Source: an uncultured Polyangiales bacterium (GTDB lineage: Bacteria > Myxococcota_A > Polyangia > Polyangiales > DASUME01). Taken from it: DNA of 39,777 nucleotides. Made by a program: the position numbers and the translations under genes. The stretch is from assembly GCA_964398415.1 (NCBI GenBank), contig CAYNOM010000002.1, forward strand, positions 4,292 through 44,068, read 5' to 3'. Shown one piece after another: positions 1,142 to 35,801 of this stretch. How positions within the stretch are numbered: the first letter of the stretch is position 1; every line of letters starts with the position of its first letter. Under the pieces are notes generated by a model. It had not been told where the DNA came from, did no database searches, and saw only the letters and a list, made by a program, of their open reading frames with translations.

Positions 1142-1225
1142 TTTCCCCCTCGTGCACGAGGCATTATCTCGCACTAGCGTACGTGCGCAGGACCGCGTTG
1201 AAAACCGGTGTGACGCATGCCTACA

Positions 1226-17694: not shown

Positions 17695-17795
17695 GCTTGA
17701 AGCATACTCGAAGGGTGGGACGGACGGGGTCGCTCCGCGCCAGTCACCCGCGCGTGTGTCCGCCGTTTGTAGGGCGAAACGCTACGCTGTGGACG

Positions 17796-18071: not shown

Positions 18072-18259
18072 GGTCACGCCCTTTCGTGGCCCGCACGGGA
18101 CGGGCATTGTCTGTAATACAACCTATGCACCATGACGCGATGCGCAATGGGGCACACCCGTCTTTCTTGGCGTGAGGGGGCGGCCTGCCCGCATTTGTCC
18201 CGCTTTCCGCGGCCTGGAAATGATGTTAGTGAGTAATCACTACAGTTGTGGAGGATCCG

Positions 18260-19717
18260 ATGCTCGTGCAATCCCGCTCTGCGGTGTCCGCGCCCACCGT
18301 CGCCTCGCTCGCGGGGACGCGCGCGACCACGCCCGATGCCAGCATCTGGGAGAACTGTCGCGAGGTGGACGTCCCGCTCACCGACATCGAGGGCACGCTG
18401 CCCCCCGATCTCGTGGGCCGACTGTTGCGCAATGGCCCGGCCAAGCGCGACCTCGGCTCGTGCTTCTGGGATGGCGACGCCATGGTGCGCGAGCTGAGCT
18501 TTCAGGCCGGCGGCAAGGCTCGCTACCGTGGCCGCTACATCGAGACCGAGAAGTACTTGGCGGAGAAGCACGCGACGCGGCCCCTGTTTCGCACCGCGGG
18601 CACCCAGCGGCCGGGCGGCATCCTGAGCAACGCCTTTCGCATCCCGGTGAGCGAGCCCAACACGCACCTCTTGCCGTTTGCCGGCAAGTTGCTCGCGCTC
18701 CACGAGGGCGGACATCCCGTCGCGCTCGATCCCGTCACGCTCGCCACGCACGGGCCCTTTCACTTCGACGGCAAGCTCTCGCGGCTCGTCACCTTTGCGG
18801 CCCATCCGCATCGCGATCCGGAGACCTTCGACGTGTTCAACTTTGGTGTGCGCGGTGCTGGTCTGGGGGGGCCTGCCGTGATCGGCTATCGCCTCACGCC
18901 CCAGGGTCGGCTCGTGACGATTGGCGAGCTGCCCCTGCCTTCGATCACGTTCATGCACGACTTCGCCGTCACGCAGAACTGGCTCGTGTTCTTCGTGCCC
19001 CCCGTGTCGTTCAGCATGGCGCGCATGCTGCTTGGCGTCGGCCCGGTGTTCGACGCGTTTCGCTGGCAGAAGGGGCGCGCTGCCCAGGTGCTGATGTTGT
19101 CGAAGGATGGCACGCAGACGCGGCGCTTCGAGATCGAGCCCATGATCCTCGGCCACGTGTCGGCGACGCGCGAGCGGGGGGATGAGGTGGTGGTCGACTT
19201 CGTGCGCGGGCCGACCTGGGACAAGATCGGCAAGGGTCTGTACTCGTACCAAACCGATGGCTTCGATTTCACGGAAGACATGTGCCAGTGGCGCATGCGC
19301 TTCGACACGCGTACCAAGCGCGTGCAGAGCGAGGAGCTCTGTGCGCTGCCCGGCGACTTTCCGCGCGGCAACGAGACGCGCGCGCTGCACGCGAGGCGCT
19401 TCGCTTACCTCGCTGCCAATCCGGCGCCTTCCATGTGTGGTTTCTTTCGCGGCACGCTCAAGCTCGATCTCGACACGGGGCGCGACGAGCTCTTCGACTT
19501 CGGGCAGGGCGCGGTCACCCATGAGCCCATCTTCGTGCCGGCCCGAGGTGCGAGCAGCGAAGATCATGGTTACCTCGTGCAGCTCGTGCACAACAGCGCG
19601 CGGCGCGCGACCGATTGCGTGGTGTTTGATGCCCGTCGCGTCAGCGATGGCCCGGTGTGCACACTGCGTCTGCCGGTCAGCGCTGGCATGACCTTCCATG
19701 GCACCTGGATGGCCTGA
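18260..19717 (+). CDS. Carotenoid oxygenase family (carotenoid/apocarotenoid cleavage dioxygenase, RPE65-like)
   Basis: GGAGGA SD before ATG 18260. Four conserved His contexts (FAAHPH, FMHDFAVT, LGHVSAT, FHGTW). LRNGPA and HEPIFVP motifs. Confidence 0.9.
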   Translation: MLVQSRSAVSAPTVASLAGTRATTPDASIWENCREVDVPLTDIEGTLPPDLVGRLLRNGPAKRDLGSCFWDGDAMVRELSFQAGGKARYRGRYIETEKYLAEKHATRPLFRTAGTQRPGGILSNAFRIPVSEPNTHLLPFAGKLLALHEGGHPVALDPVTLATHGPFHFDGKLSRLVTFAAHPHRDPETFDVFNFGVRGAGLGGPAVIGYRLTPQGRLVTIGELPLPSITFMHDFAVTQNWLVFFVPPVSFSMARMLLGVGPVFDAFRWQKGRAAQVLMLSKDGTQTRRFEIEPMILGHVSATRERGDEVVVDFVRGPTWDKIGKGLYSYQTDGFDFTEDMCQWRMRFDTRTKRVQSEELCALPGDFPRGNETRALHARRFAYLAANPAPSMCGFFRGTLKLDLDTGRDELFDFGQGAVTHEPIFVPARGASSEDHGYLVQLVHNSARRATDCVVFDARRVSDGPVCTLRLPVSAGMTFHGTWMA

Positions 19718-19837
19718 GCGTGGCCTGAGCGCGTACGCGGTTACCTCAGCGGAAAAATGCACGTAGGATGAGCCGTCCGAGGGCCTACCTGGCTCTACAC
19801 GGGCGCCTTGGCTGCTGAACGCCTAGGGGGGAGATCC

Positions 19838-20554
19838 ATGATGCGTTCGACGTGGTGTGGTCTGTCGTGGGTGATGCTGATGGCAGGTGCCGGCTGTGCC
19901 CGTGGCGACGGCGAGACAGGCTCGCGAGGGGTTTACGGCTCCTTCGACGACGACATCGCGGCGGAGGCGGATGCCGGCGCGGATGGGGGCGAGGACAGCG
20001 ACGCAGACGGCCCCTACGCGCAGGGTACGGACGCGGCCACGTCGGGCAGCGATGCGAGCACGGGCGCGTCGGGCTCGGGCAACCAGGCGGCCGGCGAAGA
20101 GCCTGCCGAAAACCCGGACGTGGCTGAGTTTCCCGTCGATCCAAAGCTCGCCTGCGCCGCGCTCTCGAGCTGCTACCAGGCACGCTACGTGGGCGAGCTT
20201 TCGGGGGATGAGTCTGGCGCGCCGCTCGTGGCGACGGGCACGCGCTCGGAGTGGGTGACCGTGCGCGTACGCGAGGACAGTGGCCTGGCGCGCGGCCTCG
20301 ACGTCGTGCTCGAGCTCAAGGGCGAGGTGGGGGCCAACTACGATCTCTTCGTGTACCGTCCCGATGATGCCAGCAGCATGCAATGCACGGGCGAAGCCCA
20401 GGCGAGCGCGCAGCCCGGAGATCGTCCCGAGTCACTTTCGCTCTCCTGGAGAGACAGGTACCTCGGTCGCGACGACACGCGCACGCTGAGTGTGGAGATC
20501 CGGCACGTGGACGGTGACTGCAAGCCCTGGGTTTTGTCGGTCTATCGGCCCTGA
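19838..20554 (+). CDS. Lipoprotein with acidic low-complexity linker and possible PPC-like beta domain
   Basis: ATG 19838 gives MMRSTWCGLSWVMLMAGAGC (lipobox). D/G/A/S-rich linker. The C-terminal WVTVRVRED...LDVVLELKGEVGANYDLFVYRPDD is reminiscent of pre-peptidase C-terminal domains (weak). Confidence 0.6.
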   Translation: MMRSTWCGLSWVMLMAGAGCARGDGETGSRGVYGSFDDDIAAEADAGADGGEDSDADGPYAQGTDAATSGSDASTGASGSGNQAAGEEPAENPDVAEFPVDPKLACAALSSCYQARYVGELSGDESGAPLVATGTRSEWVTVRVREDSGLARGLDVVLELKGEVGANYDLFVYRPDDASSMQCTGEAQASAQPGDRPESLSLSWRDRYLGRDDTRTLSVEIRHVDGDCKPWVLSVYRP

Positions 20555-20600
20555 CGCGCTCGGCCCACCCAAGGCTGCGAGCCTCTGCTACAGCTCGGCC

Positions 20601-21344
20601 ATGACGCTGCGAGTGGCGATCTTCGGCGCGACCTCGGCCATCGCGGGTGATGTGGCGCGCCTGTATCACGCACGTGGCGCAAGGCTCGTGCTCGTGGGCA
20701 GAAATGCCGACAAGCTCGCGCGGCTCGCGGCCGAGCTCAAGGGCTCCGTCGTAGCCACGATCGTGCAGGACTTCGACCGCACCGACGAGGCCGAGGCCTG
20801 CGTGCGTGGGGCGGTGACGGCGCTCGGCGAGATCGACGTGGCCTTGATCGCCCACGGCTTGCTCGGAGATCAGCTGGCGAGTGAACGGCAGGTGCCGGTC
20901 GCCATGCAGACGCTGCACACCAACGCCCTGAGCGTCGTGGCACTGCTCGTGCCGCTTTCGAATCAGCTCGAGGCGCAGCGCGGGGGCCACCTCGCCGTGA
21001 TGTCGTCGGTGGCCGCCGAGCGCGGCCGCCCTCGCAACTACACCTATGCGGCAGCCAAAGCGGCGCTCAACGTGTATCTGCAGGGCGTGCGCAGTCGCCT
21101 GGTTGCAGCAGGCGTCGAGGTGCACACCTTGAAGCTCGGTCCCGTCGATACGCCGATGACGCACAACCACGAGAAGAACGCCGTGTTCGCGCGTTCGCCC
21201 GACGTGGCCCGGGCCATCGTGCGCGCGATCGACCGCGGCGTCGACGAGGTCTACGTGCCCGGTTTCTGGCGTCTGATCATGTTTTTCGTGCGCCACATGC
21301 CCGAGGCCGTGTTTCAGCGCCTCGCATTTCTCTCGGGTCGCTGA
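20601..21344 (+). CDS. Short-chain dehydrogenase/reductase (SDR)
   Basis: Internal ATG 20601. Cofactor motif IFGATSAIAG. Catalytic Ser (MSSVAA) and YTYAAAK (YxxxK). Confidence 0.9.
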   Translation: MTLRVAIFGATSAIAGDVARLYHARGARLVLVGRNADKLARLAAELKGSVVATIVQDFDRTDEAEACVRGAVTALGEIDVALIAHGLLGDQLASERQVPVAMQTLHTNALSVVALLVPLSNQLEAQRGGHLAVMSSVAAERGRPRNYTYAAAKAALNVYLQGVRSRLVAAGVEVHTLKLGPVDTPMTHNHEKNAVFARSPDVARAIVRAIDRGVDEVYVPGFWRLIMFFVRHMPEAVFQRLAFLSGR

Positions 21345-25098: not shown

Positions 25099-25698
25099 AT
25101 GGCTCGGCGCGGGAGTAAGCTGCGGCCCTTGCTTGCCGAGGACTCCGTGGGCGCGCACGTCTACCCATTGCCGTTCGATGACACCGAGCACGCCGAGTTG
25201 CAGCGCGCCCTGGGGTGTCGATCCGTGGATGCTTTGCTCGGGTTCATGACCGCGCTCGTGAGCTTGCCCGAGGTGATCCCCACGGGAGCCTGGCTCGGCG
25301 AGCTGCTCAAGGACGCAGACCTCTCCGATGGGCCGCACATCGAGCGCGTCGCTTCGCACCTCGCGCGGCTCAACAACTTGATCGCGAGCGCGCTGAGCTT
25401 CTCCGAGATCGAGCGCTTCTGTCCGGCTGCGAGCGATGAGCCAGCCTGTCGTGCTTGGGCCCAGGGCTATCTCGACGTCATCGATCAGATCGACCTCGAG
25501 GGTGAGAGTGATGAGGTCCACGAGGACGTGGTGGCGCTGTCGTCGGTGGCGTTGCGCGTCGACGACGCGTTGCTCGCGCCCGAGCTCGAGGGCATGACGC
25601 CCGAGGCCTATCGTGCGGCGAGTCGCAAGGAGCTCGCGGCCATCGCCGCAGAGCTGCACCAGACGTGGCACAAGCGGCGCGCCGGACGGCGTCGCTAA
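25099..25698 (+). CDS. UPF0149 (YecA/YgfB N-terminal-like) family protein
   Basis: Pattern LLGFMTALVSLPEVIPTGAWLGELL...CRAWAQGYL resembles UPF0149 from memory. Coding-like GC3. Confidence 0.6.
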   Translation: MARRGSKLRPLLAEDSVGAHVYPLPFDDTEHAELQRALGCRSVDALLGFMTALVSLPEVIPTGAWLGELLKDADLSDGPHIERVASHLARLNNLIASALSFSEIERFCPAASDEPACRAWAQGYLDVIDQIDLEGESDEVHEDVVALSSVALRVDDALLAPELEGMTPEAYRAASRKELAAIAAELHQTWHKRRAGRRR

Positions 25699-25768
25699 AT
25701 CCGCTTCGTGCTTGGTTGGCGCGAGATCCCTCGATAAGGTGATCCGAGGGACAGGGCCAAGGGGGACG

Positions 25769-27061
25769 ATGGTGGCAGAGCGAGCCGACGAGGAGCTGTT
25801 GCCGGGACGGGCGGCAGAGCCCGATCGCTTCGAATTCCGGGGCGAGATCGCCTGCGGGGGCATGGGCAGCATCTACGACGTCGTCGATCGCACCTTGCGT
25901 CGCCGCCTGGCCATGAAGGTGCTGCATCCGCTGATGGCGGGCAGCGCCACCGAGCTCAACACCTTCGTGCGCGAGGCGCGACGCACGGCCAAGCTCGAGC
26001 ACCCGAGCATCGTGCCCGTGCACGACCTCTTCGCCGATCAGGCGAGCGAGAGCGCTTCGTTCGTGATGAAGTTCGTCGAGGGCGAGACCCTCTCGGCGTG
26101 GATTCAGCGCGAAGGGACGGCCGGCGGGATCCGCGGGCGCACGCTGGAGCGCGCGCTGCAGATCATCACCAAGGTGTGTGATGCCGTCGAGTTCGCCCAC
26201 AGTCGCGAGGTCTTGCACCTCGATTTGAAGCCCGACAACGTGATGATCGGCGAGCACGGCGAGGTGTACCTGATGGATTGGGGCATCTCCGTCGACTGCG
26301 AGCGCAACGCCGAAGGGCGGCTCGTGCCCCGCCTCGAGCGGCCCGGGGCGCGCGGCACACTCAGCCACATGGCGCCCGAGCAGCTCGACATGCTGCTGGC
26401 GCGCGTCGATGAGCGCGCCGACATCTACGGCCTCGGCGGGCTGCTCTACGAGGTGCTCACGGGTCGGGCGCCGTTCGTGCCCACTGGAGCTCCCGAAGAC
26501 CTCTTGCGTCTGCGCGAGCATCGGGTGCCGGCGCCCGAGGACGTGGCTCCGAGCCACGCCCTGCCGCCCGGCCTCGTGGCCATCGCCATGCGCTGTCTCG
26601 CCTTCGAGCGCGACGCGCGCTACCCGAGCGTGGGCGCGCTCAAGGTCGACCTCGAGAGCTTTCTGCGCGGCGGTGGCTGGTTTCAGACGAAGGCCTTCGC
26701 CGCCTCGGAAGACTTGGTGCGGGAGGGAGAGAAGGGCGACGCCGCCTACATTCTCGTCGAGGGCGAGTGCGACATCATCAAGGGCCACGGCGAGCACGCG
26801 CGCGTGGTGGGGCGCATCGGAGCGGGCGAAATCACCGGCGAGACCGCCTTGCTCGCGACAGGCACTCGCACCGCAACCGTGCGTGCGGTGACTTTCGTGC
26901 GGGTGCTCGTGGTGACGCGCGAGACGCTGGAGCGCGAGCTCGAGGGGCGCGGCTGGCTCGAAACCCTGGTACGCGCCCTGGCGCGCCGCTTCGCCGAGGC
27001 AGACAACGAGCGCACGAACCTGCGCGAGCAGCTCAGGCAACGTGGCTCGATCCCAGGCTAG
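25769..27061 (+). CDS. Ser/Thr protein kinase fused to a C-terminal cyclic-nucleotide-binding domain
   Basis: Internal ATG 25769 after AAGGGGGA. GGMGSIYDV, AMKVL, HLDLKPDNVMI, MDWGIS, HMAPEQ. The C-terminal cNMP-like region reads FAASEDLVREGEKGDAAYILVEGEC...GEITGETALL...RTATVRA. Confidence 0.9.
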   Translation: MVAERADEELLPGRAAEPDRFEFRGEIACGGMGSIYDVVDRTLRRRLAMKVLHPLMAGSATELNTFVREARRTAKLEHPSIVPVHDLFADQASESASFVMKFVEGETLSAWIQREGTAGGIRGRTLERALQIITKVCDAVEFAHSREVLHLDLKPDNVMIGEHGEVYLMDWGISVDCERNAEGRLVPRLERPGARGTLSHMAPEQLDMLLARVDERADIYGLGGLLYEVLTGRAPFVPTGAPEDLLRLREHRVPAPEDVAPSHALPPGLVAIAMRCLAFERDARYPSVGALKVDLESFLRGGGWFQTKAFAASEDLVREGEKGDAAYILVEGECDIIKGHGEHARVVGRIGAGEITGETALLATGTRTATVRAVTFVRVLVVTRETLERELEGRGWLETLVRALARRFAEADNERTNLREQLRQRGSIPG

Positions 27062-27433: not shown

Positions 27434-28105
27434 TCACGGGGGCGGTGCGACAGACGCGGTCGGGCAGACGGAGTTTCGCGCGCATCGCGCGTGCTCGAAC
27501 AGCGCCTCGAACACCGAGCGCACGTCTTCGAAGGCCCGCACAGCGCCCTGCCGCGCGCTCTCCCGCAGGGGCATGGCGTCTAGTCTCTGATCGAGCTCGT
27601 GACGAAAGCGCTGAAAGCGAGCCATGGTCTCCTTACCGTGTCCCCTGAAGTAGCGCGTGCTCCCGTCATCGAGCGCGAGACGAGCCGAGATCATGGGATA
27701 GAGCATGGCTGAGCCCAGTGCCGAGCCTTCGAGCACGTAGAGCCGACCGAGCAGGCTGGCCTCATCGAGCAGGCTCGTGTCTACGGTGCAGGCGCGGGCG
27801 ATCGCGGCGCGGAGCGACCTCGGCAGGCTGTGGGTGGCGCATCCGAGCGCCGCAAGATCCTGGTCCGCGAGCGCACTCTTGCGGGGCGTGCTGAGCAGAT
27901 GGGAGAGGCCCTTGGCTTCGAGCGCCCACTCGAGGTGACGATGGAGCTCCGCGTAGGCGCACAAGAGCTCGGCGTAGCTCGTGCGCGAGATCTCGCCCTT
28001 CGCGAGCAGCTCGGCGAACGCCGTCGACTCGGTCTGCTTGTGCTCGACCTGGGTCACCGCCTTGAGCCAAAGCGAGGCCTGCGGGATCAATGGGTGGAGT
28101 TCCAT
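27434..28105 (-). CDS. Heme oxygenase family protein (last gene of the operon)
   Basis: Internal ATG 28105 (MELHPLIPQ). LKAVTQVEHKQTESTAF matches the proximal-His helix (HO-1 LKEATKEVHTQAENAEF, from memory). LYVLEGSALGS matches the bacterial HO distal-helix motif YVLEGS.LGG. 223 aa. Confidence 0.75.
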   Translation of the reverse strand: MELHPLIPQASLWLKAVTQVEHKQTESTAFAELLAKGEISRTSYAELLCAYAELHRHLEWALEAKGLSHLLSTPRKSALADQDLAALGCATHSLPRSLRAAIARACTVDTSLLDEASLLGRLYVLEGSALGSAMLYPMISARLALDDGSTRYFRGHGKETMARFQRFRHELDQRLDAMPLRESARQGAVRAFEDVRSVFEALFEHARCARNSVCPTASVAPPP

Positions 28106-28554
28106 CTGCGAAGCTCCTCGATGAAGGCGTGAAGGTAAGGCTCGAAGGCGTAGGTGTCGGCCTCGTTCAACACCTCGGCCATGGCCTCGCGCAGGGTCTC
28201 GAAGCTCGACACGAGCGCGGCTGGCTCGATCAGTTGGCACAGCTGCTCGGCGACCCATTCGGCGTGGGCCTCCACGAAGTGCGTGAGGTCGGCCCGCACG
28301 TGCGCGAGCGCCACGCGCCTGAGCATGTGGCGCAGCTCTTCGATCCCCTCGGCACGGCCACCGTGAAGACGTCTCACGTCACCGAGGCGCTCGAGCGCGC
28401 GCACGTAGATGCGCTCTTCGGCAGCTTGCATGCGGCGCGCGGCAGACAGACGTTGGCCCATACCGGTTGCATACTCGCGTAACGCGTCGACCTCCTGGTC
28501 GCTCAAGAAGCGCCCCTCGGCGTTGACGATCATCGATCTGAGCTCGGTGTTCAT
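28087..28554 (-). CDS. Phycobiliprotein-like (phycobilisome protein family, globin fold) protein A
   Basis: ATG 28554 overlaps the kinase stop as ATGA. MNTELRSMIVNAEGRFLSDQEVDAL...RLSAARRMQAAEERI aligns by eye with phycocyanin/allophycocyanin N-termini (..AD.QGRFLS..EL...). C-terminal YLHAFIEEL resembles YIDYAINAL. 155 aa. Confidence 0.6.
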   Translation of the reverse strand: MNTELRSMIVNAEGRFLSDQEVDALREYATGMGQRLSAARRMQAAEERIYVRALERLGDVRRLHGGRAEGIEELRHMLRRVALAHVRADLTHFVEAHAEWVAEQLCQLIEPAALVSSFETLREAMAEVLNEADTYAFEPYLHAFIEELRRWNSTH

Positions 28555-30146
28555 GCGTCTCCCCCTGAAAATGGAATGCGTTCGACGCGTCCCTGTGCGT
28601 CGACCCACGCGAGGCTCGAGGCATTGGCCGCGAGCCCCACGATGGGTTGATCGAGTGCGGTGCGTGCCCGTGCGCCCGTACGCACGTCGAAACTGTAGAG
28701 CGAGCCTTCCTTCTCGATGCCGTACAGGCGCTGCCCGTCGAAGGCTGAGGGTCGCGCGGGCAAGCGCACGCTCCTCGTGCCCGCGGCGCTGAGCAGCAGC
28801 ACACGGCCTTCGGCGCCAGACACATCTGCCACCAAGATCTGGCCGTCATCGTGGACCCACAGGCGCTGCACGTGTGCATCGACAGCGATCTTGCGAGCTT
28901 CGAACATCACGCATGCGCCCCCACCCGCAACCCCCGCGAGTGCGAGCGCGCCGCTCGCGCCGACTGCGAGGGCGGTGATGCGCTGGCCGAGCTCGACTGG
29001 AGCACGCTGCTCCTCTCTACCGCCCGCGATGCGGGCCTTGCCCTCCGTGGCCACTGCGATCTCACCACGCGGACCGAGCGCGATGCACGCACCAGGTCGG
29101 ACGCGCATGCCACGCACGGGGCCGTGGGGGCCATGGACGCGCACTTCGTTGCCATGGCGCAGCGCGAAGTACTCTCCATGGGCCAGCATTTCGTCTACGT
29201 CGCTGTGGGCTTCCTGCGCGTCGCCGCGCGGCCCATGACGCGAGACATCGCGGCCCGTGCGCAGCAGCAATGCGTAAGGCGTGAGGGCCAGCTCCTCGAC
29301 GCCGGGTGCGTAGAGCGGCCAACGCTCGTTCACGAACTCGGAGGCTTCGTCACGCAGCGCGAGCGTCAGGGCGGAGATCCACGCGTCCACCGTATCGAAG
29401 CGATCTTCGGGCCGTTTGGCCAAGCTCCGCTCGAGCAAGAGGCGCATGCGCGGTGGCAGCCACTCAGGAAGCACCGGCTCGCGCTCCAGGTGCGCCAGCA
29501 TGATTTGGGCCGGCGTGCCCGCGAAAGGTCTTTGCCCGCACAGGATCTCGTAGACCACGACGCCCAGCGAGTAGACGTCCACGCGTCTGTCGTAGGAGTC
29601 GTAGAACTGCTCAGGCGCCATGTACGCAGGAGAGCCGCTGTTGCTACGCGTGGCCGCCTCCACGCCGAGCGCAGAGATGCCGAAGTCGGTGACTTTGGCG
29701 CGCAGGCCGCCGCCGCTGCGCGTGACGAGGATGTTCTCGGGCTTCAAGTCGCGGTGCAGCACGTTGCGCGCATGGGCGTACGCCACGCCCGCCGCGGCCT
29801 CGCGCACGAGCTCGAGCGTGGCCACTACCTCTGTGCCGAGGTTGATGCGCTCACGCAGGGAGCCGAGCTCCATGTATTCGTACACGAGGTAGCGCAGGCC
29901 CTGCTCCATGAACACCGAATCCGCGCGTACCACCGCGGGATGGGCGAGGTCGAAGACGGCCCCGATCTCACGCATGAAGGTGTCTTCGCCCGCGAGCGCC
30001 GAGAACTCCTTGAGCGCCACACGACGCTGGGCCTTGACGTCGTGCGCGAGGTAGACGCGTCCGTGGGCGCCTTGTCCGAGCACGCGCTCGGTGGCGTAAC
30101 GCCCGCCGAGTAAGCGTCTCTCTCTCTCGTAGCCCGCGAGATTCAA
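28551..30146 (-). CDS. Ser/Thr protein kinase with ~250-aa beta-rich C-terminal domain
   Basis: GQGAHGRVYLA, VALKEF, HRDLKPENILV, DFGIS, AYMAPEQ. The proposed TTG start at 30146 overlaps the upstream stop as TTGA, with AAGGGGG 10 nt upstream. The ORF start 30482 and ATG 30257 would overlap the V4R gene extensively. Confidence 0.9.
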   Translation of the reverse strand: MNLAGYERERRLLGGRYATERVLGQGAHGRVYLAHDVKAQRRVALKEFSALAGEDTFMREIGAVFDLAHPAVVRADSVFMEQGLRYLVYEYMELGSLRERINLGTEVVATLELVREAAAGVAYAHARNVLHRDLKPENILVTRSGGGLRAKVTDFGISALGVEAATRSNSGSPAYMAPEQFYDSYDRRVDVYSLGVVVYEILCGQRPFAGTPAQIMLAHLEREPVLPEWLPPRMRLLLERSLAKRPEDRFDTVDAWISALTLALRDEASEFVNERWPLYAPGVEELALTPYALLLRTGRDVSRHGPRGDAQEAHSDVDEMLAHGEYFALRHGNEVRVHGPHGPVRGMRVRPGACIALGPRGEIAVATEGKARIAGGREEQRAPVELGQRITALAVGASGALALAGVAGGGACVMFEARKIAVDAHVQRLWVHDDGQILVADVSGAEGRVLLLSAAGTRSVRLPARPSAFDGQRLYGIEKEGSLYSFDVRTGARARTALDQPIVGLAANASSLAWVDAQGRVERIPFSGGDA

Positions 30147-30802
30147 GACGCTGAGACCCCCTTCAGCTTGTCTAGGATCTCGCTTGCCGGGCGCTTCTGC
30201 TTCACCCACGCGGACGCTGGTGCGAGCCGGTCTGTCATTCCAACTACGAACTTGCATGACTCGTCTCCCTGGCTTCGACACGCGATCTCGACACAGCTCA
30301 GATCCCGCCCCGAGATGTGTGAGATCAGAGATCCCAAGACACCGGCGACGAGGTGATCCGAGGGCCTGTCGAGCTTGCCTACACTCGCGCTGTAGGGGGC
30401 TCCGCTCACGTCGGCGACGATGAAGCCCTGCGCTGCGAGGTCGAAGGACAGCTCGAGATTGCCCCAGCCGAGCAGGCCCCACGAGCGGCGCAGGCTCTGC
30501 ACGTACATGGCGAGCGGGATTTCGTGGAGCGCCCGTCCATGGAAGGCGCGCACCTCATCCGAGTGTCTTTGGGCGTAGCGCGCCCCCCACCACTTGCCGA
30601 CGCTGTAGAGGACCACGGGAGCGGCGCTGCCCGTCTCTTCTTCGAGGCCCTTGTGAAGGCCCTGGATCAGCTGTTCTGGAATCGCGAGCATGCGCGTCCC
30701 CATCGGGCTTCGGATCACGCCCTTTCTGACGTCGAGCTTCAGGTAGCTCTCGGCGCGGTAGGGATTGGTGGCCATGCTCGCGGGATCGTCGGGGCGGTTC
30801 AT
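30143..30802 (-). CDS. V4R (4-vinyl reductase-type small-molecule-binding) domain protein 1
   Basis: The ATG overlaps the upstream stop as ATGA (30799-30802). C-terminal V4R signature HLVAGVLGSLISHISGRDLSCVEIACRSQGDESCKFVVG. Paralogous to 31650-32294. Confidence 0.7.
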   Translation of the reverse strand: MNRPDDPASMATNPYRAESYLKLDVRKGVIRSPMGTRMLAIPEQLIQGLHKGLEEETGSAAPVVLYSVGKWWGARYAQRHSDEVRAFHGRALHEIPLAMYVQSLRRSWGLLGWGNLELSFDLAAQGFIVADVSGAPYSASVGKLDRPSDHLVAGVLGSLISHISGRDLSCVEIACRSQGDESCKFVVGMTDRLAPASAWVKQKRPASEILDKLKGVSAS

Positions 30803-31290
30803 GCGTCACTCCTTTCGTGCTCGAGCTCGGTGATGATGAGCTCGATGTAGGGAGCGAGGCGTCTTCCGCGCTCCGCTCCGAGATGCGTGATCGCGGCGTC
30901 GACCAGTCGTTTGTAGCCGTAGATCATCGGTTCTTTCGGCATCAGCGCGACCACGATGGTCTTCATCCAGATCGCGAGCTTGTCGCGGACGAAGTCGGGG
31001 TCGGACAGCAGCATGCCCAGCACCGCGTAGCGGTACACGAAGGTCATGTCGCGGCGCCCGCGCAGCTCGCTGTCTGCTCCGTGATTGCGCGCGAGCTCGG
31101 GGTGACGAGCCATCAGCGCCGAGAGCGCGTCATCGATGATGAGCTTCTCCTGGGCTTCGAGCTCGCGAACCGAGGGCAACGCGACGAGCAAGCTCTCCGT
31201 GTAGGCACGAATCTCGGCCTCTTCGGTCTCCGTGAAGTAGCGACTCTGGGCGCCGTAGAGCGCCTTTCTGACATCGGCCTGCATACTCAT
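30799..31290 (-). CDS. Phycobiliprotein-like (globin fold) protein B
   Basis: Start ATG 31290 or 31284, with GAGGAG directly upstream. ...ALYGAQSRYFTETEEAEIRAY...ELEAQEKLIIDDALSAL parallels protein A and phycobiliprotein N-termini. GRRDMTFVYRYAVLGML aligns by eye with the C-A-R-D-x3-Y-L-R chromophore-site helix. ~162 aa. Confidence 0.55.
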   Translation of the reverse strand: MSMQADVRKALYGAQSRYFTETEEAEIRAYTESLLVALPSVRELEAQEKLIIDDALSALMARHPELARNHGADSELRGRRDMTFVYRYAVLGMLLSDPDFVRDKLAIWMKTIVVALMPKEPMIYGYKRLVDAAITHLGAERGRRLAPYIELIITELEHERSDA

Positions 31291-31294
31291 CTCC

Positions 31295-31636
31295 TCACGT
31301 CCAGTTGAAGGCGCCGAACACGGCATCCACCGTTTGACCCTGCTGATGATCGGTCGGGCCATCGGCCTTACCCGTCCAATTCACGGTCGAGAACACGAGA
31401 CCCACGGGTCTTGCGGCATCGGCGAGGCGCACGCGCTTCTGATCGTCGGGCAAGACGCCCCAGCGCACGTGGCGCGCGAACACCGAGCCTGCCGGGCGCG
31501 CCATCAAGGGGTCGACCCTGTGGGGCTCGATGCGCGGGGGAAGGCTTCTCGTCGTGCGCGCGAGGCGACTCGTCTCGGGCCTTTGCGGCTCGTCGCTGCG
31601 CGCGGGAGGCGGAAGGGTTGCGGCGTGCATGCTCAT
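31295..31636 (-). CDS. Orphan 113-aa protein
   Basis: GAGGAAAG SD 3 nt before ATG 31636. GC-rich third positions. The stop lies 4 nt before the next start. Pro/Arg-rich N-terminal half, beta-like C-terminal half with VNWT/FNWT. No family recognised. Confidence 0.45.
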   Translation of the reverse strand: MSMHAATLPPPARSDEPQRPETSRLARTTRSLPPRIEPHRVDPLMARPAGSVFARHVRWGVLPDDQKRVRLADAARPVGLVFSTVNWTGKADGPTDHQQGQTVDAVFGAFNWT

Positions 31637-31649
31637 GGACTTTCCTCGC

Positions 31650-32294
31650 TCACAGCCGCCCGATGACGTCGTTGGCGCTCGCGCCCTCTTCGAGCCAGAA
31701 CTGCACGGCGTTGATCTTCTGCTCGGCGCCGATGACGAAGCGGCAGTAGGTCGCGCCCATGGCGTAACACTGGATTTCGATGCCGCTCAGATCGCGCTTG
31801 GCGAGGTGCGTCAGGGCGCCCGCCAGCATGCCGGCGTAGAGGTGACACACGGGCTTTCCCACTTCGCCTAGGGTCTTCGCTACGGCTGAGTCGAAGAGGT
31901 TCACGAGGATGAGGCCCTGATCGCGCTTGCCATCGAGGTCGACCTCCCATGCGCCCCAGCCCATGGTCTGCAGCGGCCACCACCACTCCTCGAGCACGAA
32001 CTTCACGTTCATCTGCCGCATGTCGCGTCCAAACTCGCGCAGCATGTTGCTCTCGAAGCGCTTGAGGTCGGTGAGCCCCCACTGAAAGCCGCAGCGATAG
32101 AGGACTACGGCCGAGGCATCGCCCACCTCCTGCTCGAGGCCCGCCTGCAGGCCAACGATGAAATCCTCCGAAGCGAAGAACGCGAGCTCGTCGTTTCGAG
32201 TGCGCACGCTTCCGCCCTTCGGGTCGAAGCGGAAGTAGTCTTCGAGGGTGAAGTAGTTGTGCTTCTTGGGTTGCTGTCCGATGATCACGCTCAC
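31650..32294 (-). CDS. V4R domain protein 2
   Basis: GTG start 32294, with GGGGGA 4 nt upstream. V4R signature KPVCHLYAGMLAGALTHLAKRDLSGIEIQCYAMGATYCRFVIG. Confidence 0.7.
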   Translation of the reverse strand: MSVIIGQQPKKHNYFTLEDYFRFDPKGGSVRTRNDELAFFASEDFIVGLQAGLEQEVGDASAVVLYRCGFQWGLTDLKRFESNMLREFGRDMRQMNVKFVLEEWWWPLQTMGWGAWEVDLDGKRDQGLILVNLFDSAVAKTLGEVGKPVCHLYAGMLAGALTHLAKRDLSGIEIQCYAMGATYCRFVIGAEQKINAVQFWLEEGASANDVIGRL

Positions 32295-32304
32295 GGTTTC
32301 CCCC

Positions 32305-32784
32305 TCACGCGTCTCGCGTGTCCTTCATGACCCTCTGCAGATCGGCTTCGACCTGCATCAGCTGCTGCGCGGTGCTGCGCGTGATGATCTTGCCGGCCTG
32401 AACCAGGACGCGGCCATCGACGGGGTGCAGCACGCGTAGCTCGGCGCGACGGCCCACGAGCTCGTCGATGTCCGCGTGTTGGGCCACGTACAAACCTTCA
32501 GGCAGCCTGATGACCACGCCGTCACGCAGCACCTTGGCCTGGCAGGCAAGTCGAGACTCGGAGGTTGCCTCGCCGATCAGCGATAGCGTGCGCTCTTCGC
32601 GCTTCGTGCGCGGCGTGATGCAGTTGTCTCCACTCTGCACGTAGACGTGGCAGGTGGCACAGATGCCGCGTCCACCGCAGGCCATCTTCACCGGCACGCG
32701 CTCCGCAAGCAGAGCTTGAAGCACGTTGGCTTCGGTCTTCACTTCCACGATCTTTGCGGTGCCCGCGAACTGGACGGTCTTCAT
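32305..32784 (-). CDS. [2Fe-2S] ferredoxin, adrenodoxin-type spacing, with ~60-aa C-terminal extension
   Basis: C-x5-C-x2-C-x35-C pattern (MACGGRGICATCHV...SRLACQA). The ATG overlaps the upstream stop as ATGA (32781-32784). Confidence 0.85.
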   Translation of the reverse strand: MKTVQFAGTAKIVEVKTEANVLQALLAERVPVKMACGGRGICATCHVYVQSGDNCITPRTKREERTLSLIGEATSESRLACQAKVLRDGVVIRLPEGLYVAQHADIDELVGRRAELRVLHPVDGRVLVQAGKIITRSTAQQLMQVEADLQRVMKDTRDA

Positions 32785-33701
32785 CGTCGTGCCTCCCCCG
32801 GTTTCGAATCGACAGCGTGGCCCTGCGCGTACGTCTCAGACTCGGCGGCGGCGCTACGCGAAAGCGCATCGAGATCGAGATCGCGGATCGACGGATCGAG
32901 GTCCGACACCAGGGCGATGAAAGCCTCGCACCAGCGCCGCACCATGACGCTCGCGCGTGAGAGCTCGAGCTCATCGGGGCGGCTGCAACGCACGCTGCCA
33001 TCGAGGTCGACCTCGAACGGATCCAGCGTTCCGTCGCTACACACGGCCTTGCGGGCGCGATTCAGATAGTTGCGCCGAACTGCACCACCGAGGTTCTTAC
33101 CCGCGTGCGCCGACAGGGCGGCCACCTGTGCGAGCAGACCCTGCGCGTCGAGCTCGCTCGGCCCATCGCTCGTGCGCGTGAACGCGAGAGGTGCCTCGCG
33201 TGGGGCATTCGATCTCGCGAGCAGCGCCGACGGAGAGAGCGGCTCGAGCTTGAGCGACGACGGTGGCGGTACGGTGGCTACGTCTTCGGGCTCGGGTGCA
33301 GGGACAGTGATGGTGGCGGGGCGTGACGCGGGTGAGGACGACCGAAGCGGGCCCCCGTCGCCACTGAGAGCCGATCCCACCGCATCGACGAGCGACGGTA
33401 CCGACAGGGCGACCCGGCTGACCACGGCGTGGAGGTGTGCTCCCTCCCTGACGCGCAGCGCGACGCTGCCCTTGCCGGCTCTGAGCCATACGATGCGGCA
33501 CGTGGCCGTCTCCACCTCCAGAAAACGCGCATCGGGCTGACGCTCGAAGAGCTGACTCAGGATGGGTAGGGCCTGAGAGAGCGCATCGGCATGGGCGTCG
33601 AGGCGCGCGCAGTAGGTGGAGCCATCCTCTGCGAAGAAGGCGACGCCGTCGACGTCTGGAACAGCAAGCATTCCGCTCAGGGTGTCGATCAATCCGAGCA
33701 T
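32781..33701 (-). CDS. Roadblock/LC7 (MglB-like) N-terminal domain protein with Pro/Ser-rich linker and C-terminal domain
   Basis: N-terminal MLGLIDTLSGMLAVPDVDGVAFFAEDGS...CRIVWLRAGKGSVALRVREGAHL fits the Roadblock/LC7 pattern by eye. The start overlaps the upstream gene by 13 nt. Confidence 0.5.
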   Translation of the reverse strand: MLGLIDTLSGMLAVPDVDGVAFFAEDGSTYCARLDAHADALSQALPILSQLFERQPDARFLEVETATCRIVWLRAGKGSVALRVREGAHLHAVVSRVALSVPSLVDAVGSALSGDGGPLRSSSPASRPATITVPAPEPEDVATVPPPSSLKLEPLSPSALLARSNAPREAPLAFTRTSDGPSELDAQGLLAQVAALSAHAGKNLGGAVRRNYLNRARKAVCSDGTLDPFEVDLDGSVRCSRPDELELSRASVMVRRWCEAFIALVSDLDPSIRDLDLDALSRSAAAESETYAQGHAVDSKPGEARR

Positions 33702-34276
33702 GTGAGCCCCTTCAGGGTGCTCTCGAGCAGGTCACGACTGGGCGGTCTGCCGACGTCGGTGAGGCACACCGCTGCGTCGCGGCCGCGGGGACGCAGCACG
33801 GCCATCACCCGGTCGTCGCACAGGCTGGCCGAAAGCGCCTCGGTCTCGCCCAGGGCGTGCGCCGTGGCGGCCGCGATCTGCTGAGTCAGGTTCATCGCAT
33901 CGAGCCAACGCGGTGAGAGCGAGAGCTGAGAGAGCTCTTGTCGCGAGGGCGGCGCACTCAACGTGAAGCTGCACAGGATGCCCGGCGCGATGGGGCGAAC
34001 CGTGGGCGTTGCGCTCGTATCGATGTGGATCTCCCGTGACATGACGCTCCGTAGGGCGTGAAGGTGGGTGGCATTCAGCGCGCGCGCCAAGCGTGCTGAC
34101 TTGCGCGGGCCGTCCCGGCTCGCGTCCTCGTCGAGCTCGTGCCGGGTCGTAGACAGCGTGATGCCGTCTTGTTGAACGGTGGTGACGAGGTGTGCAGGGT
34201 CGCTCTCACTCGCCACGGTCTTGACCTCGAGCGTGCGATCGGAAAGCTCGACGCTGGACTGCCTGTGCATGCTCAT
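33689..34276 (-). CDS. Hypothetical protein, possible divergent Roadblock-like C-terminal half
   Basis: The ATG overlaps the GTPase stop as ATGA (34273-34276). Coding-like GC3. The C-terminal AAATAHALGETEALSASLCDDRVMAVLRPRGRDAAVCLTD weakly resembles the second half of a Roadblock fold. Confidence 0.45.
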   Translation of the reverse strand: MSMHRQSSVELSDRTLEVKTVASESDPAHLVTTVQQDGITLSTTRHELDEDASRDGPRKSARLARALNATHLHALRSVMSREIHIDTSATPTVRPIAPGILCSFTLSAPPSRQELSQLSLSPRWLDAMNLTQQIAAATAHALGETEALSASLCDDRVMAVLRPRGRDAAVCLTDVGRPPSRDLLESTLKGLTCSD

Positions 34277-35397
34277 GCTCCCGCCGAGCGGAACCAGCCG
34301 CGTCGCTTGCGCGTGTCGTTCGACAGCTCTTCGAGGGACTCCTGTAGATTTTGGAGGTCGCGATGCAGTGCACCCTGACCTGCCCGCACCTGGGCATCGA
34401 CCTCGCGGAGGCTGTCACTCAGATCGTGCAGGTCGGCCAGCTCCTTGCGAATGTCCGCGATCAGCTCCCCCCGCAGCAACGGAAGTTGGTCGAGCCGCTC
34501 CACGACACTTTGGTGCAGGCGGTCGTTGGCGACGGGCACCACGGCCACGGCTTCCTTCAGGGTCTCTCCCGTCTGGTGAATGAGCTTTCGAGTTCCGATG
34601 GTCTGCTCTTCGAGCGCGCGTCGTAGACTACGCATGTCGCGCTCACGGGCTTCGGCGTCGACCTTCAGCGCGTCGATGGTCTGGTGGGCAGCGTCGACGC
34701 GTGCGTGCAGGGCAACGAAGCGTTCTGCCAGGCTGTCGAGGGCGCCCACGATGCGATCGAGCTTGCTCGAGGTGCGCTCCCCTTCGAGTCTCTGTCTCAG
34801 GCCACTCGTCTGGGGATCCTGAAATGCTCGGCGCGCCGCCTGTTCGTAAGCGCACTGCAGCGCAGCGACGACGCCCTGTCCGGTGCTCGCCACGCTCTCG
34901 AAGCACAACGCGTCGGGCATGCCGATGCTGCGCAGAAGCTCCTCACGCGAGCTCGGGTCTGGGTCGTCGGCATGGTTGAGCTGTACCACCACCGGCAGCG
35001 TGCTGAGGGTTTGACCCTGGCGACTCAGATCATCGAACAAGCGCTGCGCCGCCTGCTCGTTGGCCGGGCCATGCGCCTTGCCTGAGTGCAGCACCAGCAC
35101 GACCGCATCGGCGCCCTGCAACAGACGCTCGGTGGTGGTCCGCTGCCGAGCCTCGCCCACGAGACCCCGCACGCGGACCAGCACTTGTGCCCCTTCGAGC
35201 GCATCGCGTTGATTGGGCACCCAATCAAACATCGCCGTGCGATCGCCGTTCTGGTTGAGCGAGATAAGCTCGGTGGCTCTGCCGGCCTCGGTGGCGCGCC
35301 GCACCGCTTCGAGTGCCGCGAGCTTGCCCGCGCCCTCGGGCCCCAAGTAGGCAATACACAGCTCCACCGAGCCGCGCTCCACATCCACGCGTGGCAT
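34273..35397 (-). CDS. MglA-like small GTPase domain (degenerate G motifs) fused to ~190-aa coiled-coil tail; first gene of the operon
   Basis: ATG 35397, with GAGGGGGG 4 nt upstream. ELCIAYLGPEGAGKLAAL / LISLNQNGDRTAMFDWVP / GADAVVLVLHSG / LPVVVQLNHADDP / ASTGQGV are collinear with M. xanthus MglA (IVYYGPGLCGKTTNL / LISLSTETDRTLFFDFLP / GVDGVVFVADSQ / IPYVIQYNKRDLP / APTGVGV, from memory). Confidence 0.75.
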   Translation of the reverse strand: MPRVDVERGSVELCIAYLGPEGAGKLAALEAVRRATEAGRATELISLNQNGDRTAMFDWVPNQRDALEGAQVLVRVRGLVGEARQRTTTERLLQGADAVVLVLHSGKAHGPANEQAAQRLFDDLSRQGQTLSTLPVVVQLNHADDPDPSSREELLRSIGMPDALCFESVASTGQGVVAALQCAYEQAARRAFQDPQTSGLRQRLEGERTSSKLDRIVGALDSLAERFVALHARVDAAHQTIDALKVDAEARERDMRSLRRALEEQTIGTRKLIHQTGETLKEAVAVVPVANDRLHQSVVERLDQLPLLRGELIADIRKELADLHDLSDSLREVDAQVRAGQGALHRDLQNLQESLEELSNDTRKRRGWFRSAGA

Positions 35398-35801
35398 GGT
35401 TCCCCCCTCATGCGCGCCCATCTGCCGGGCGTCTATCCCGTAACAGGGATGTCCTAAGTTAAACAGCAGCCATGGACAAAGTCTATGTTTGCCTAGGGTG
35501 TGGACCGATTTTGGTGGCAGGCCTTGAGGCGACCAGCGCTGGCATGCGCTGTGGGATCACACCACTTATTCTGAGTAGTTGCGATGCCATGAGTGGGCGC
35601 GCATGCAGTCTTGCGCAGCTGCTCTGGCGCTCACCGTGGGTCACTGTTTGTTCATTGTTTGGTTCGGGTAGGGTGGTTGTGCAGGGCAACCACGCGGGCG
35701 CGCCTTGTAGGCCGTGACCCGCGTGTGCACTGGGCGGCTTGGGGGCTTGTCCCCATAGTTGCGTCTCGAGGCGCTGAGCCTTCGTGAGAAGGAGAGGACG
35801 A
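35398..35801. promoter_or_regulatory. ~400-bp divergent intergenic region between the 11-gene operon and the LLM oxidoreductase gene
   Basis: Longest non-coding gap in the window and visibly less GC-rich than its surroundings. Contains a TGTTTG direct repeat 11 bp apart (35645-35650, 35656-35661) and a 7-bp-stem hairpin/palindrome gtggttg-N7-caaccac (35673-35693). No confident -35/-10 or sigma-54 element identified. Confidence 0.4.

What the first reader, a model, noticed from the sequence alone, without database searches (positions are those of the whole stretch)
30799..31290. Phycobiliprotein-like protein B: completely Cys-free but keeps an Arg-Asp pair where phycobiliproteins contact the bilin
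Seen: the ~162-aa product (..ALYGAQSRYFTETEEAEIRAY...ELEAQEKLIIDDALSAL...) parallels protein A and the phycobiliprotein N-termini. The segment LRGRRDMTFVYRYAVLGML aligns by eye with K-C-A-R-D-I-G-Y-Y-L-R-M-V-T-Y. That places Gly at the attachment-Cys position while retaining the R-D pair. In phycobiliproteins that pair contacts the bilin propionate and pyrrole nitrogens (established knowledge, alignment by eye). The protein contains no Cys at all. Two distinct paralogues (A and B) in one operon recall the alpha/beta heterodimer of phycobiliproteins (inference).
Basis: partly seen in the sequence, partly recalled or inferred. Interest (0 to 1): 0.75.

Follow-up and report, generated by a model that had tools for sequence, protein, structure and literature searches.

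The report
Cys-free bilin-associated globin (BBAG) gene
This gene encodes a real but non-photosynthetic relative of the phycobiliproteins, belonging to the "BBAG" family described in 2023; its lack of the pigment-attachment cysteine is common in that family, so it is a new member of a known kind.

Summary
Window 30799-31290 (minus strand) encodes a 163-aa, Cys-free protein that matches Pfam Phycobilisome PF00502 (E 5.5e-17). Pairwise and profile alignments to solved allophycocyanins put G78-R79-R80-D81 on the C-x-R-D bilin site. An AlphaFold model (pLDDT 86) matches only phycobiliprotein chains.

It is not a light-harvesting phycobiliprotein. It is a bilin biosynthesis-associated globin (BBAG; Rockwell, Martin and Lagarias, PNAS 2023). 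It lies in the published cluster type: 2Fe-2S ferredoxin, two V4R proteins, one or two globins and a heme oxygenase. Here these form a tightly packed 11-gene operon that also holds a Ser/Thr kinase and a GTPase-like module.

Orthologous operons in Myxococcota MAGs keep the same gene order. Two of them add a ferredoxin-dependent bilin reductase after the heme oxygenase. The window has none.

Losing the Cys is not special. Only 44 of 140 family representatives have Cys there and 27 have Gly, while Arg (117) and Asp (131) are kept.

Most likely protein B binds biliverdin non-covalently, without a lyase, inside a V4R/ferredoxin/kinase complex. The proposed alpha/beta pairing with protein A is untested and weakened. 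Interest is moderate.

The parts
30799..31290 (-). Protein B: a Cys-free BBAG (phycobiliprotein-fold globin), 163 aa. The G78-R79-R80-D81 motif is encoded at 31048-31059.
   Evidence: PF00502 E 5.5e-17. PDB alignments. AF2 model pLDDT 85.9 and Foldseek top 50 hits all phycobiliprotein chains (allophycocyanin, phycocyanin, phycoerythrin), TM 0.64-0.72. Orthologues in L001, L004, L006, L008 and L011.
28087..28554 (-). Protein A: the second, divergent globin paralogue, 155 aa. It has E-E in place of R-D and one Cys (C105).
   Evidence: PF00502 E 2.3e-9. Orthologues are 34-74% identical in L001/L004/L006. R-D is lost in 5 of 6 A-type sequences.
27434..28105 (-). Heme oxygenase, 223 aa, the last gene of the operon.
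   Evidence: PF01126 E 1.2e-14. It has a T-x-x-x-H-x-x-x-E proximal-His motif and an LEGSALG motif (read). It is conserved at the same position in L001, L004, L006 and L011.
28551..30146 (-). Ser/Thr protein kinase, 531 aa, with a ~280-aa C-terminal domain. Its TTG start overlaps the V4R stop.
   Evidence: Pkinase E 1.9e-45. Full-length orthologues (alignments of 512-520 aa) are 35-52% identical. A kinase follows the second V4R gene in 10 of 12 evaluable loci.
30143..30802 (-). V4R protein (downstream copy), 219 aa. Its ATGA start overlaps the stop of B.
   Evidence: PF02830 E 3.5e-10. It is 27-30% identical to the other V4R's orthologues, i.e. a second clade.
31295..31636 (-). Small conserved protein, 113 aa, with three short Trp motifs (VFARHVRWG, VFSTVNWTG, VFGAFNWT).
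   Evidence: GC3 0.81. Conserved at the same position in L001, L003, L004, L006, L008, L011, L013, L016 and L017. Motif count is 26 against 2.1 expected. No Pfam or NCBIfam hit.
31650..32294 (-). V4R protein (upstream copy), 214 aa, the most conserved gene of the cluster.
   Evidence: PF02830 E 5.2e-19. It is 64-80% identical in L001/L004/L006.
32305..32784 (-). 2Fe-2S ferredoxin with a C-terminal extension, 159 aa.
   Evidence: PF00111 E 4.1e-11. It is 61-79% identical in orthologous loci.
32781..33701 (-). Conserved protein of unknown function, 306 aa.
   Evidence: No Pfam hit. It has an orthologue in L001 (36%) and a partial one in L006. It overlaps Fer2 by 4 bp.
33689..34276 (-). Conserved protein of unknown function, 195 aa.
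   Evidence: No Pfam hit. It has an orthologue in L001 (26%, E 9e-15).
34273..35421 (-). GTPase-like protein with a coiled-coil tail, 382 aa, the first gene of the operon.
   Evidence: Orthologues in L001, L004 and L011. The L004 orthologue carries Arf/GTP_EFTU Pfam hits. It has a GPEGAGKL P-loop and an NHAD motif (read).

Best explanation
Protein B is a bilin biosynthesis-associated globin (BBAG), a non-photosynthetic paralogue of the phycobiliproteins. [quoted passage not shown] B most likely holds that bilin non-covalently and without a lyase in the conserved helix-E pocket. Arg80 would bind a propionate and Asp81 the pyrrole N-H groups, with Arg87, Tyr88 and Trp108 also conserved. No thioether bond is possible because the protein has no Cys. 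B probably works in a complex with the two V4R proteins and the ferredoxin, as Slr0144-Slr0149 do in Synechocystis. The adjacent Ser/Thr kinase and the upstream GTPase-like module would provide a signalling output. Shown here: homology, fold, motif placement, operon structure and its conservation. Inferred: bilin binding, its non-covalent nature, the complex and the signalling role.
For: Fold and motif. Family constraint on the pocket: R 117/140, D 131/140, R87 128/140 and W108 99%, and RGRRDMTFVYRYA is invariant at 57% overall identity. Context: 11 tightly packed genes, several with overlapping start and stop codons. The order Fer2-V4R-small-B-V4R-STK-A-HO is repeated in L001, L004, L006 and L011, and in L008 until its contig ends after A. 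An FDBR (PF05996) follows HO in L006 and L011. The family includes Thermostichus cyanobacterial globins with CRRD. Literature: BBAG-1, -2 and -3 bind bilins without lyases, and the cluster is Fe-S + BBAG + two V4R +/- HO (PMC10151467). Slr0144-Slr0149 co-purify (PMC9880817). ApcD3 and ApcE2 bind phycocyanobilin non-covalently when the Cys is absent (PMC10810746; the 8uhe ApcD3 chain has the highest TM, 0.72).
Against: [quoted passage not shown] No ligand can be seen from sequence. The family-invariant Trp108, absent from phycobiliproteins, could fill the pocket. No FDBR lies in the 39.8-kb window, so the cognate bilin is uncertain. The function of the whole cluster is unknown even in Synechocystis.
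Confidence: 0.6

Rival explanations
1. B and A form an alpha/beta-type heterodimer like phycobiliprotein protomers. The pair would be the functional bilin-binding unit.
For: Both match PF00502 over nearly its full length, including the N-terminal helix hairpin that forms the alpha/beta interface in phycobiliproteins. A and B co-occur in the same operon in all six Myxococcota lineages examined.
Against: A has lost the R-D pair in 5 of 6 lineages. B-type globins occur alone in the Blastocatellia, Alcaligenaceae and Verrucomicrobiales loci. Cyanobacterial clusters have a single BBAG (PMC10151467). A and B are separated by two genes rather than adjacent. Pairwise BLASTP of A against B is not significant.
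Confidence: 0.2
2. B is a bilin carrier or sink in heme catabolism rather than a sensor. It would take biliverdin off the heme oxygenase, whose product release is slow, and pass it to an FDBR or to V4R proteins.
For: B is in the same operon as HO and ferredoxin, and an FDBR lies directly after HO in L006 and L011. BBAGs accept several bilins (PMC10151467, PMC13446030).
Against: The kinase is conserved next to the cluster across phyla. The GTPase-like module lies upstream in the window, L001, L004 and L011. Both point to signalling. No iron-uptake or heme-transport genes lie in the operon.
Confidence: 0.15
3. B binds no tetrapyrrole and is a ligand-free helical regulatory or scaffold domain, like the non-heme globin domain of RsbR.
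For: There is no Cys, and Trp108 is family-invariant but absent from phycobiliproteins. The characterised BBAG-1 was poorly chromophorylated (PMC10151467).
Against: R-D, Arg87 and Tyr88 are retained under strong constraint, whereas the neighbouring paralogue A has lost R-D. B is linked to HO. Three BBAG lineages bind bilins experimentally (PMC10151467).
Confidence: 0.12
4. B is a heme-binding globin, either a heme sensor or a heme donor to the heme oxygenase.
For: The phycobiliprotein fold derives from the globin fold, and the operon encodes a heme-consuming enzyme.
Against: No His reaches 60% conservation in the family. The conserved residues are those of the bilin site. All PDB matches by sequence and the top 50 by fold are phycobiliproteins, not hemoglobins.
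Confidence: 0.05

Closest known systems
[quoted passage not shown] MBL9008307, POZ53552, Synechocystis Slr0149; Rockwell, Martin and Lagarias 2023, PMC10151467)
   Same: Same phycobiliprotein-like globin fold. Same cluster of Fe-S protein, two V4R proteins of two clades, one or two globins and a heme oxygenase. Myxococcota host, as for the pre-3 clusters. The R-D pair is retained. The family found with B includes Thermostichus BBAG-like proteins.
   Different: The characterised members carry CXRD, whereas B has GRRD and no Cys at all. The window has no FDBR within 39.8 kb. The Ser/Thr kinase, the Trp-motif small protein and the GTPase-like module are not among the cluster genes named in the parts of that paper read here, and 'kinase' and 'GTPase' are absent from its held supplement.
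Allophycocyanin subunits (ApcD, ApcF, ApcA, ApcB)
   Same: Best sequence and structure matches. Same length, N-terminal hairpin, R-D pair and the following L-R-Y.
   Different: No attachment Cys. NCBIfam apcB scores 28 bits against a cutoff of 228, and apcA 16 against 270. The B-E loop is 4-5 residues shorter. Trp108 is family-specific. The genomic context is non-photosynthetic, with no lyase or linker genes found.
Far-red allophycocyanin ApcD3 / ApcE2 (PDB 8UHE; PMC10810746)
   Same: Phycobiliprotein-fold subunits that lack the Cys and hold the bilin non-covalently. ApcD3 has the highest TM-score to the B model (0.72). The paper reports a short B-E loop for far-red alpha subunits, and B also has a short loop.
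   Different: They are part of a phycobilisome core in cyanobacteria, bind phycocyanobilin made by PcyA, and function in light harvesting.
BBAG-2 / photoglobin-photocobilin globins
   Same: Bilin-binding globins of Myxococcota. [quoted passage not shown]
   Different: They carry RGMC or CXQD motifs and sit beside a B12-binding protein (PMC10151467). B has neither motif, and no B12-binding gene is in the window.

Membership tests
BBAG (bilin biosynthesis-associated globin), BBAG-1/3/cyanobacterial lineage | Globin of the phycobiliprotein superfamily (PF00502-type fold) | tested here: met
   PF00502 E 5.5e-17. AF2 plus Foldseek matches phycobiliprotein chains at TM 0.64-0.72.
BBAG (bilin biosynthesis-associated globin), BBAG-1/3/cyanobacterial lineage | Encoded next to bilin-biosynthesis genes (heme oxygenase and/or a pre-PcyA FDBR) | tested here: met
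   HO lies in the same operon. An FDBR lies directly after HO in the orthologous operons L006 and L011. No FDBR is in the window itself.
BBAG (bilin biosynthesis-associated globin), BBAG-1/3/cyanobacterial lineage | Cluster with an Fe-S protein and two V4R proteins of distinct clades | tested here: met
   Fer2 at 32305-32784. V4R genes at 31650-32294 and 30143-30802, whose orthologue sets are only 27-30% identical to each other.
BBAG (bilin biosynthesis-associated globin), BBAG-1/3/cyanobacterial lineage | CXRD chromophore motif (present in 'some' members, so not strictly defining) | tested here: inconclusive
   R-D is present, but Cys is replaced by Gly. Family-wide, 44 of 140 representatives have Cys.
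BBAG (bilin biosynthesis-associated globin), BBAG-1/3/cyanobacterial lineage | Lyase-independent bilin binding | not testable with these tools
   This needs co-expression and spectroscopy. No lyase genes were found in the window.
Light-harvesting phycobiliproteins (allophycocyanin, phycocyanin, phycoerythrin) | Cys81/84 thioether attachment site | tested here: not met
   Gly78 sits at that column and the protein has no Cys.
Light-harvesting phycobiliproteins (allophycocyanin, phycocyanin, phycoerythrin) | Scores above the equivalog cutoffs of the ApcA, ApcB or CpcB models | tested here: not met
   apcB scores 28.4 bits against 228, and ApcA 16 against 270.
Light-harvesting phycobiliproteins (allophycocyanin, phycocyanin, phycoerythrin) | Accompanied by linker and lyase genes in a photosynthetic genome | tested here: not met
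   No such Pfam families were found among the window genes. Relatives come from Myxococcota MAGs. Only the window was tested, not the whole genome.
Light-harvesting phycobiliproteins (allophycocyanin, phycocyanin, phycoerythrin) | Alpha/beta protomer assembling into trimers | not testable with these tools
   No multimer prediction was available.
BBAG-2 / photoglobin | RGMC or CXQD motif and an adjacent B12-binding protein | tested here: not met
   Neither motif occurs in B. There is no PF02310/PF02607 hit in the window.

The most novel reading that the evidence does not exclude
The Cys-free globin B, possibly with the R-D-less paralogue A, could be the chromophore subunit of an unrecognised sensor of light, redox state or heme status in non-photosynthetic bacteria. 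It would hold biliverdin non-covalently in a phycobiliprotein fold. The V4R proteins, the ferredoxin and the Trp-motif small protein would read its state. The output would run through the conserved Ser/Thr kinase and the GTPase-like module. This would give the BBAG/V4R/Fe-S cluster, the proposed ancestor context of phycobiliproteins, a signalling function.
Probability: 0.15. Interest if true: 0.8.

Novelty: new member of a known kind. Interest (0 to 1): 0.4.

Why it matters
BBAGs are the proposed pre-photosynthetic ancestors of phycobiliproteins, and the function of their ferredoxin/V4R cluster is unknown even in Synechocystis. This locus adds a clean example that has a heme oxygenase but no FDBR. 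Its globin cannot attach a bilin covalently, yet it keeps the R-D pocket under strong constraint. That makes it a good test of whether non-covalent biliverdin binding is the ancestral mode of the family. A Ser/Thr kinase sits next to the cluster in Myxococcota, Acidobacteriota, Betaproteobacteria and Verrucomicrobiota, paralleling SpkG and Fd5 in Synechocystis. A conserved small Trp-motif protein is also present. Together these give concrete, testable hints that the cluster is a signalling module.

Tried and rejected
The scan with patterns from B then matched 56 stretches but confirmed no relative. The V4R alignment was used instead and gave 10 loci.
- The word-indexed protein search returned only 3 and then 13 relatives. 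The exhaustive profile search was needed to see the family.
- Giant multi-stretch hits such as P0012 (4583 aa, 31 stretches) lack any R-D motif. They were set aside as probable helical-repeat noise.
- Pairwise BLASTP of A against B is not significant. Their relationship shows only against each other's orthologues and against profiles.
- The promoter and terminator scan of the operon was uninformative: 0 promoters, and terminators at shuffle level.
- The look-up of the NCBI member P0154 found nothing on record.
- The supplement of the BBAG paper does not mention kinases or GTPases.
- I searched for an FDBR in the window in two ways: Pfam on the GC3-supported genes, and a two-sequence FDBR profile on all six-frame ORFs of at least 60 aa. 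Neither found one.
- I considered predicting a fused A-linker-B chain. I rejected it because the tool returns no interface metrics.

Full report
**The observation**

- The finding's coordinates (30799-31290) are an ORF on the minus strand, stop codon included. A GAGGAG ribosome-binding site lies just before the ATG at 31290.
- The product is 163 aa. Homologues and metagenome gene callers start at the second Met, giving 161 aa.
- The coding signature is strong (GC by codon position 0.65/0.40/0.83), and the protein has no cysteine.
- It matches Pfam PF00502 (Phycobilisome protein) at E 5.5e-17, 62.6 bits against a gathering score of 22.2. The match covers almost the whole profile, positions 8-155 of 155.

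**Placement of the R-D pair**

- phmmer against all PDB sequences returns only phycobiliproteins, the best being ApcD (7ext_V3, E 2.3e-6). It aligns B 'r-g-r-r-d-m-t-f-v-y-r-y' with ApcD 'q-c-l-r-d-y-g-w-y-l-r-l'.
- An 18-sequence profile of the family hits 167 distinct phycobiliprotein sequences at E <= 1e-3, the best being ApcF at 3.5e-15. It puts the family's 'v-r-R-D-l-t-l-V-l-R-Y' on 'C-L-R-D-M-D-Y-Y-L-R-Y'.
- So Gly78 occupies the attachment-Cys column, and Arg80/Asp81 (window 31048-31059) are the R-D pair.
- An AlphaFold2 model built on 14 sequences is all-helical, with pLDDT 85.9 and pTM 0.80. Its 50 best Foldseek matches in the PDB are all phycobiliprotein chains, mostly allophycocyanin, at TM 0.64-0.72 over about 160 columns.

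**Operon context**

B is the seventh of eleven tightly packed minus-strand genes spanning 27434-35421. Several have overlapping start and stop codons. In order of transcription they are:
1. A GTPase-like coiled-coil protein (382 aa).
2. A conserved unknown protein (195 aa).
3. A second conserved unknown protein (306 aa).
4. A 2Fe-2S ferredoxin.
5. A V4R protein.
6. A 113-aa protein.
7. Protein B.
8. A second V4R protein.
9. A Ser/Thr kinase.
10. The second globin, A (PF00502, E 2.3e-9).
11. A heme oxygenase (PF01126, E 1.2e-14).

**What is already known**

- Rockwell, Martin and Lagarias (PNAS 2023, PMC10151467) described this kind of cluster. It contains an Fe-S protein, two V4R proteins of two clades, one or two phycobiliprotein-like globins, usually a heme oxygenase, and a pre-PcyA ferredoxin-dependent bilin reductase (FDBR).
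- They named the globins BBAGs, for bilin biosynthesis-associated globins.
- They showed that representatives of three lineages bind bilins in E. coli without lyases.
- A 2026 follow-up characterises the pre-PcyA enzymes and the BBAG MBL9008307 (PMC13446030).

**Relatives**

- An exhaustive profile search of 1.84 billion representative proteins finds a small family: 235 clusters at E <= 1e-3 and 74 at E <= 1e-10.
- Named members come from Myxococcota MAGs. One cluster comes from the cyanobacterium Thermostichus and carries CRRD.
- Contigs with orthologues 34-58% identical to B repeat the order Fer2-V4R-small-B-V4R-kinase-A-HO gene for gene. These are L001, L004, L006 and L011; L008 (35% by tblastn) matches until its contig ends after A.
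- Identities across L001, L004 and L006 are 61-79% for the ferredoxin, 64-80% for the upstream V4R and 41-52% for the kinase.
- In L006 and L011 an FDBR (PF05996) follows the heme oxygenase.
- In the window, L001 and L004 the operon stops at the heme oxygenase. Neither Pfam scans of the window's genes nor an FDBR mini-profile on all its six-frame ORFs finds an FDBR in the 39.8 kb.
- More distant loci were found through the V4R protein, in Blastocatellia, Alcaligenaceae, Verrucomicrobiales, Planctomycetota and Sumerlaeota. They retain the ferredoxin-V4R core with variations, and most also keep a BBAG and the second V4R gene.

**How unusual the missing Cys is**

- It is not unusual. In a MAFFT alignment of 140 family sequences, the Cys81-equivalent column reads C 44, G 27, A 16, T 16, V 9, L 9, W 6 and others.
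- The next-but-one columns are R in 117 of 140 and D in 131 of 140. Arg87 (128 of 140), Tyr88 (104 of 140) and Trp108 (99%) are also conserved.
- Nineteen of the 140 are entirely Cys-free.
- All nine cluster-linked BBAGs fetched from other loci have G, I, M or A at the site and keep R-D. This includes the two whose operons carry an FDBR.
- Among B's closest orthologues the block RGRRDMTFVYRYA is invariant at 57% overall identity. The pocket helix is therefore under strong constraint despite the absent Cys.

**Protein A and the alpha/beta idea**

- A and B are distant. Direct BLASTP is not significant, although each matches the other's orthologues at about 1e-10.
- A-type proteins have lost the R-D pair in five of six lineages. 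The window has E-E; only L008 keeps R-D.
- B-type globins stand alone in the Blastocatellia, Alcaligenaceae and Verrucomicrobiales loci.
- B therefore does not generally need an A-type partner. The heterodimer analogy remains possible in Myxococcota but is untested, because no multimer prediction was available.

**Most likely mechanism**

- Shown here: B has the phycobiliprotein fold with a conserved R-D site, no Cys, and sits in a conserved operon with a heme oxygenase, a ferredoxin, two V4R proteins and a kinase.
- Inferred: the heme oxygenase, reduced by the ferredoxin, makes biliverdin IX-alpha. B binds it non-covalently and without a lyase.
- Solved structures give a precedent. ApcD3 and ApcE2 of the far-red allophycocyanin core lack the Cys and hold phycocyanobilin non-covalently (PMC10810746). 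The 8uhe ApcD3 chain gives the highest TM-score to the B model.
- That paper reports a shortened B-E loop in far-red alpha subunits. The alignments place a 4-5-residue gap in the same loop of B.
- In Synechocystis, Slr0144-Slr0149 (V4R, Fe-S and BBAG proteins) co-fractionate and co-purify with Slr0149-GFP (PMC9880817). B probably also works in such a complex.
- A Ser/Thr kinase lies directly after the second V4R gene in 10 of 12 evaluable loci across four phyla. By the title of reference 58 of PMC10151467, the neighbouring kinase SpkG of Synechocystis is involved in phosphorylation of the cluster's ferredoxin Fd5. This points to a signalling role rather than a light-harvesting one.
- I put about 0.9 on BBAG membership, about 0.55 on non-covalent bilin binding and about 0.3 on the sensory-complex role.

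**Rival explanations**

The rivals are a bilin carrier for heme catabolism, a ligand-free scaffold and a heme-binding globin. No His reaches 60% conservation in the family, which argues against heme ligation. NCBIfam scores for apcB and ApcA are an order of magnitude below their cutoffs. No lyase, linker or B12-binding genes are in the window. B is therefore neither a true allophycocyanin nor a BBAG-2/photoglobin.

**Verdict**

This is a correct and careful observation of a protein that belongs to a recently described family. It is a new member of a known kind, not a new kind. Residual interest lies in three points:
- Only Cys-containing BBAGs have been tested experimentally.
- This operon lacks an FDBR.
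- The conserved kinase, the small Trp-motif protein and the GTPase-like module do not appear as cluster members in the parts of the two papers I read.

Noticed in passing
window 31295-31636 (-): A 113-aa ORF lies between the upstream V4R gene and B and is conserved at that position across Myxococcota, Alcaligenaceae and Planctomycetota loci. It carries 2-3 copies of a short motif, [FLV]-x-x-[VAF]-x-W-[TDS]-G, that contains every Trp of most of these proteins. There are 26 motif hits in 12 proteins against 2.1 expected from shuffles. It has no Pfam or NCBIfam match and may be a docking peptide for the V4R or BBAG proteins.
   Followed up: partly
window 28551-30146 (-); L010 12625-13416; L013 10616-11389; L015 13347-14111: A Ser/Thr kinase directly follows the second V4R gene in 10 of 12 evaluable loci, including Blastocatellia, Alcaligenaceae and Verrucomicrobiales. 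This parallels SpkG (slr0152) beside the Synechocystis slr0144-slr0149 cluster. Only the kinase domain is shared outside Myxococcota.
   Followed up: partly
window 32781-35421 (-): Three genes upstream in the same operon are conserved in L001, with the GTPase also in L004 and L011. They are a GTPase-like protein with a coiled-coil tail (P-loop GPEGAGKL, with Leu where Ser/Thr is usual, and an NHAD motif) and two proteins without any family match (195 and 306 aa).
   Followed up: partly
L012 10692-13643 (Sumerlaeota MAG): A 983-aa protein built of several BBAG-like globin domains (family HMM E 2e-31) sits between the V4R gene and a single-domain BBAG. P0072 and P0073 (973 and 978 aa, 5-6 matched stretches) look like the same kind.
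   Followed up: no
L004 15175-20489 (Myxococcota MAG JBCCWC010000046): In this relative the cluster lies about 1.2 kb from a group of carotenoid genes, beyond one intervening unannotated gene. The group holds two phytoene/squalene synthase-family genes, an amine-oxidase-type desaturase, and a MerR-B12-binding (CarH-like) regulator. This hints at a light-response neighbourhood, but it was seen in one locus only.
   Followed up: no
window 18233-21344 (+): An RPE65-family carotenoid cleavage oxygenase (E 1e-101) lies close to a short-chain dehydrogenase, with one unannotated ORF (19772-20554) between them, about 6 kb from the operon. Any functional link is unknown.
   Followed up: no
window 2-1225 (-): An ORF that runs off the window edge has a ZU5 domain (E 8e-8), a domain mostly known from animal ankyrin and netrin-receptor proteins.
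   Followed up: no
window 16672-17781 (-), 25598-27061 (+): Two further Ser/Thr kinases lie in the window. One is fused to a cyclic-nucleotide-binding domain and lies just past a 114-aa ORF that converges on the heme-oxygenase end of the operon. This density of kinases is typical of Myxococcota.
   Followed up: no
L010 14376-15215; L013 14936-15739: Weak FDBR-like ORFs (E 1e-5 and 2e-4 against a two-sequence profile) lie downstream of the kinase in the Blastocatellia and Alcaligenaceae loci. They are probably pre-1-type reductases.
   Followed up: no
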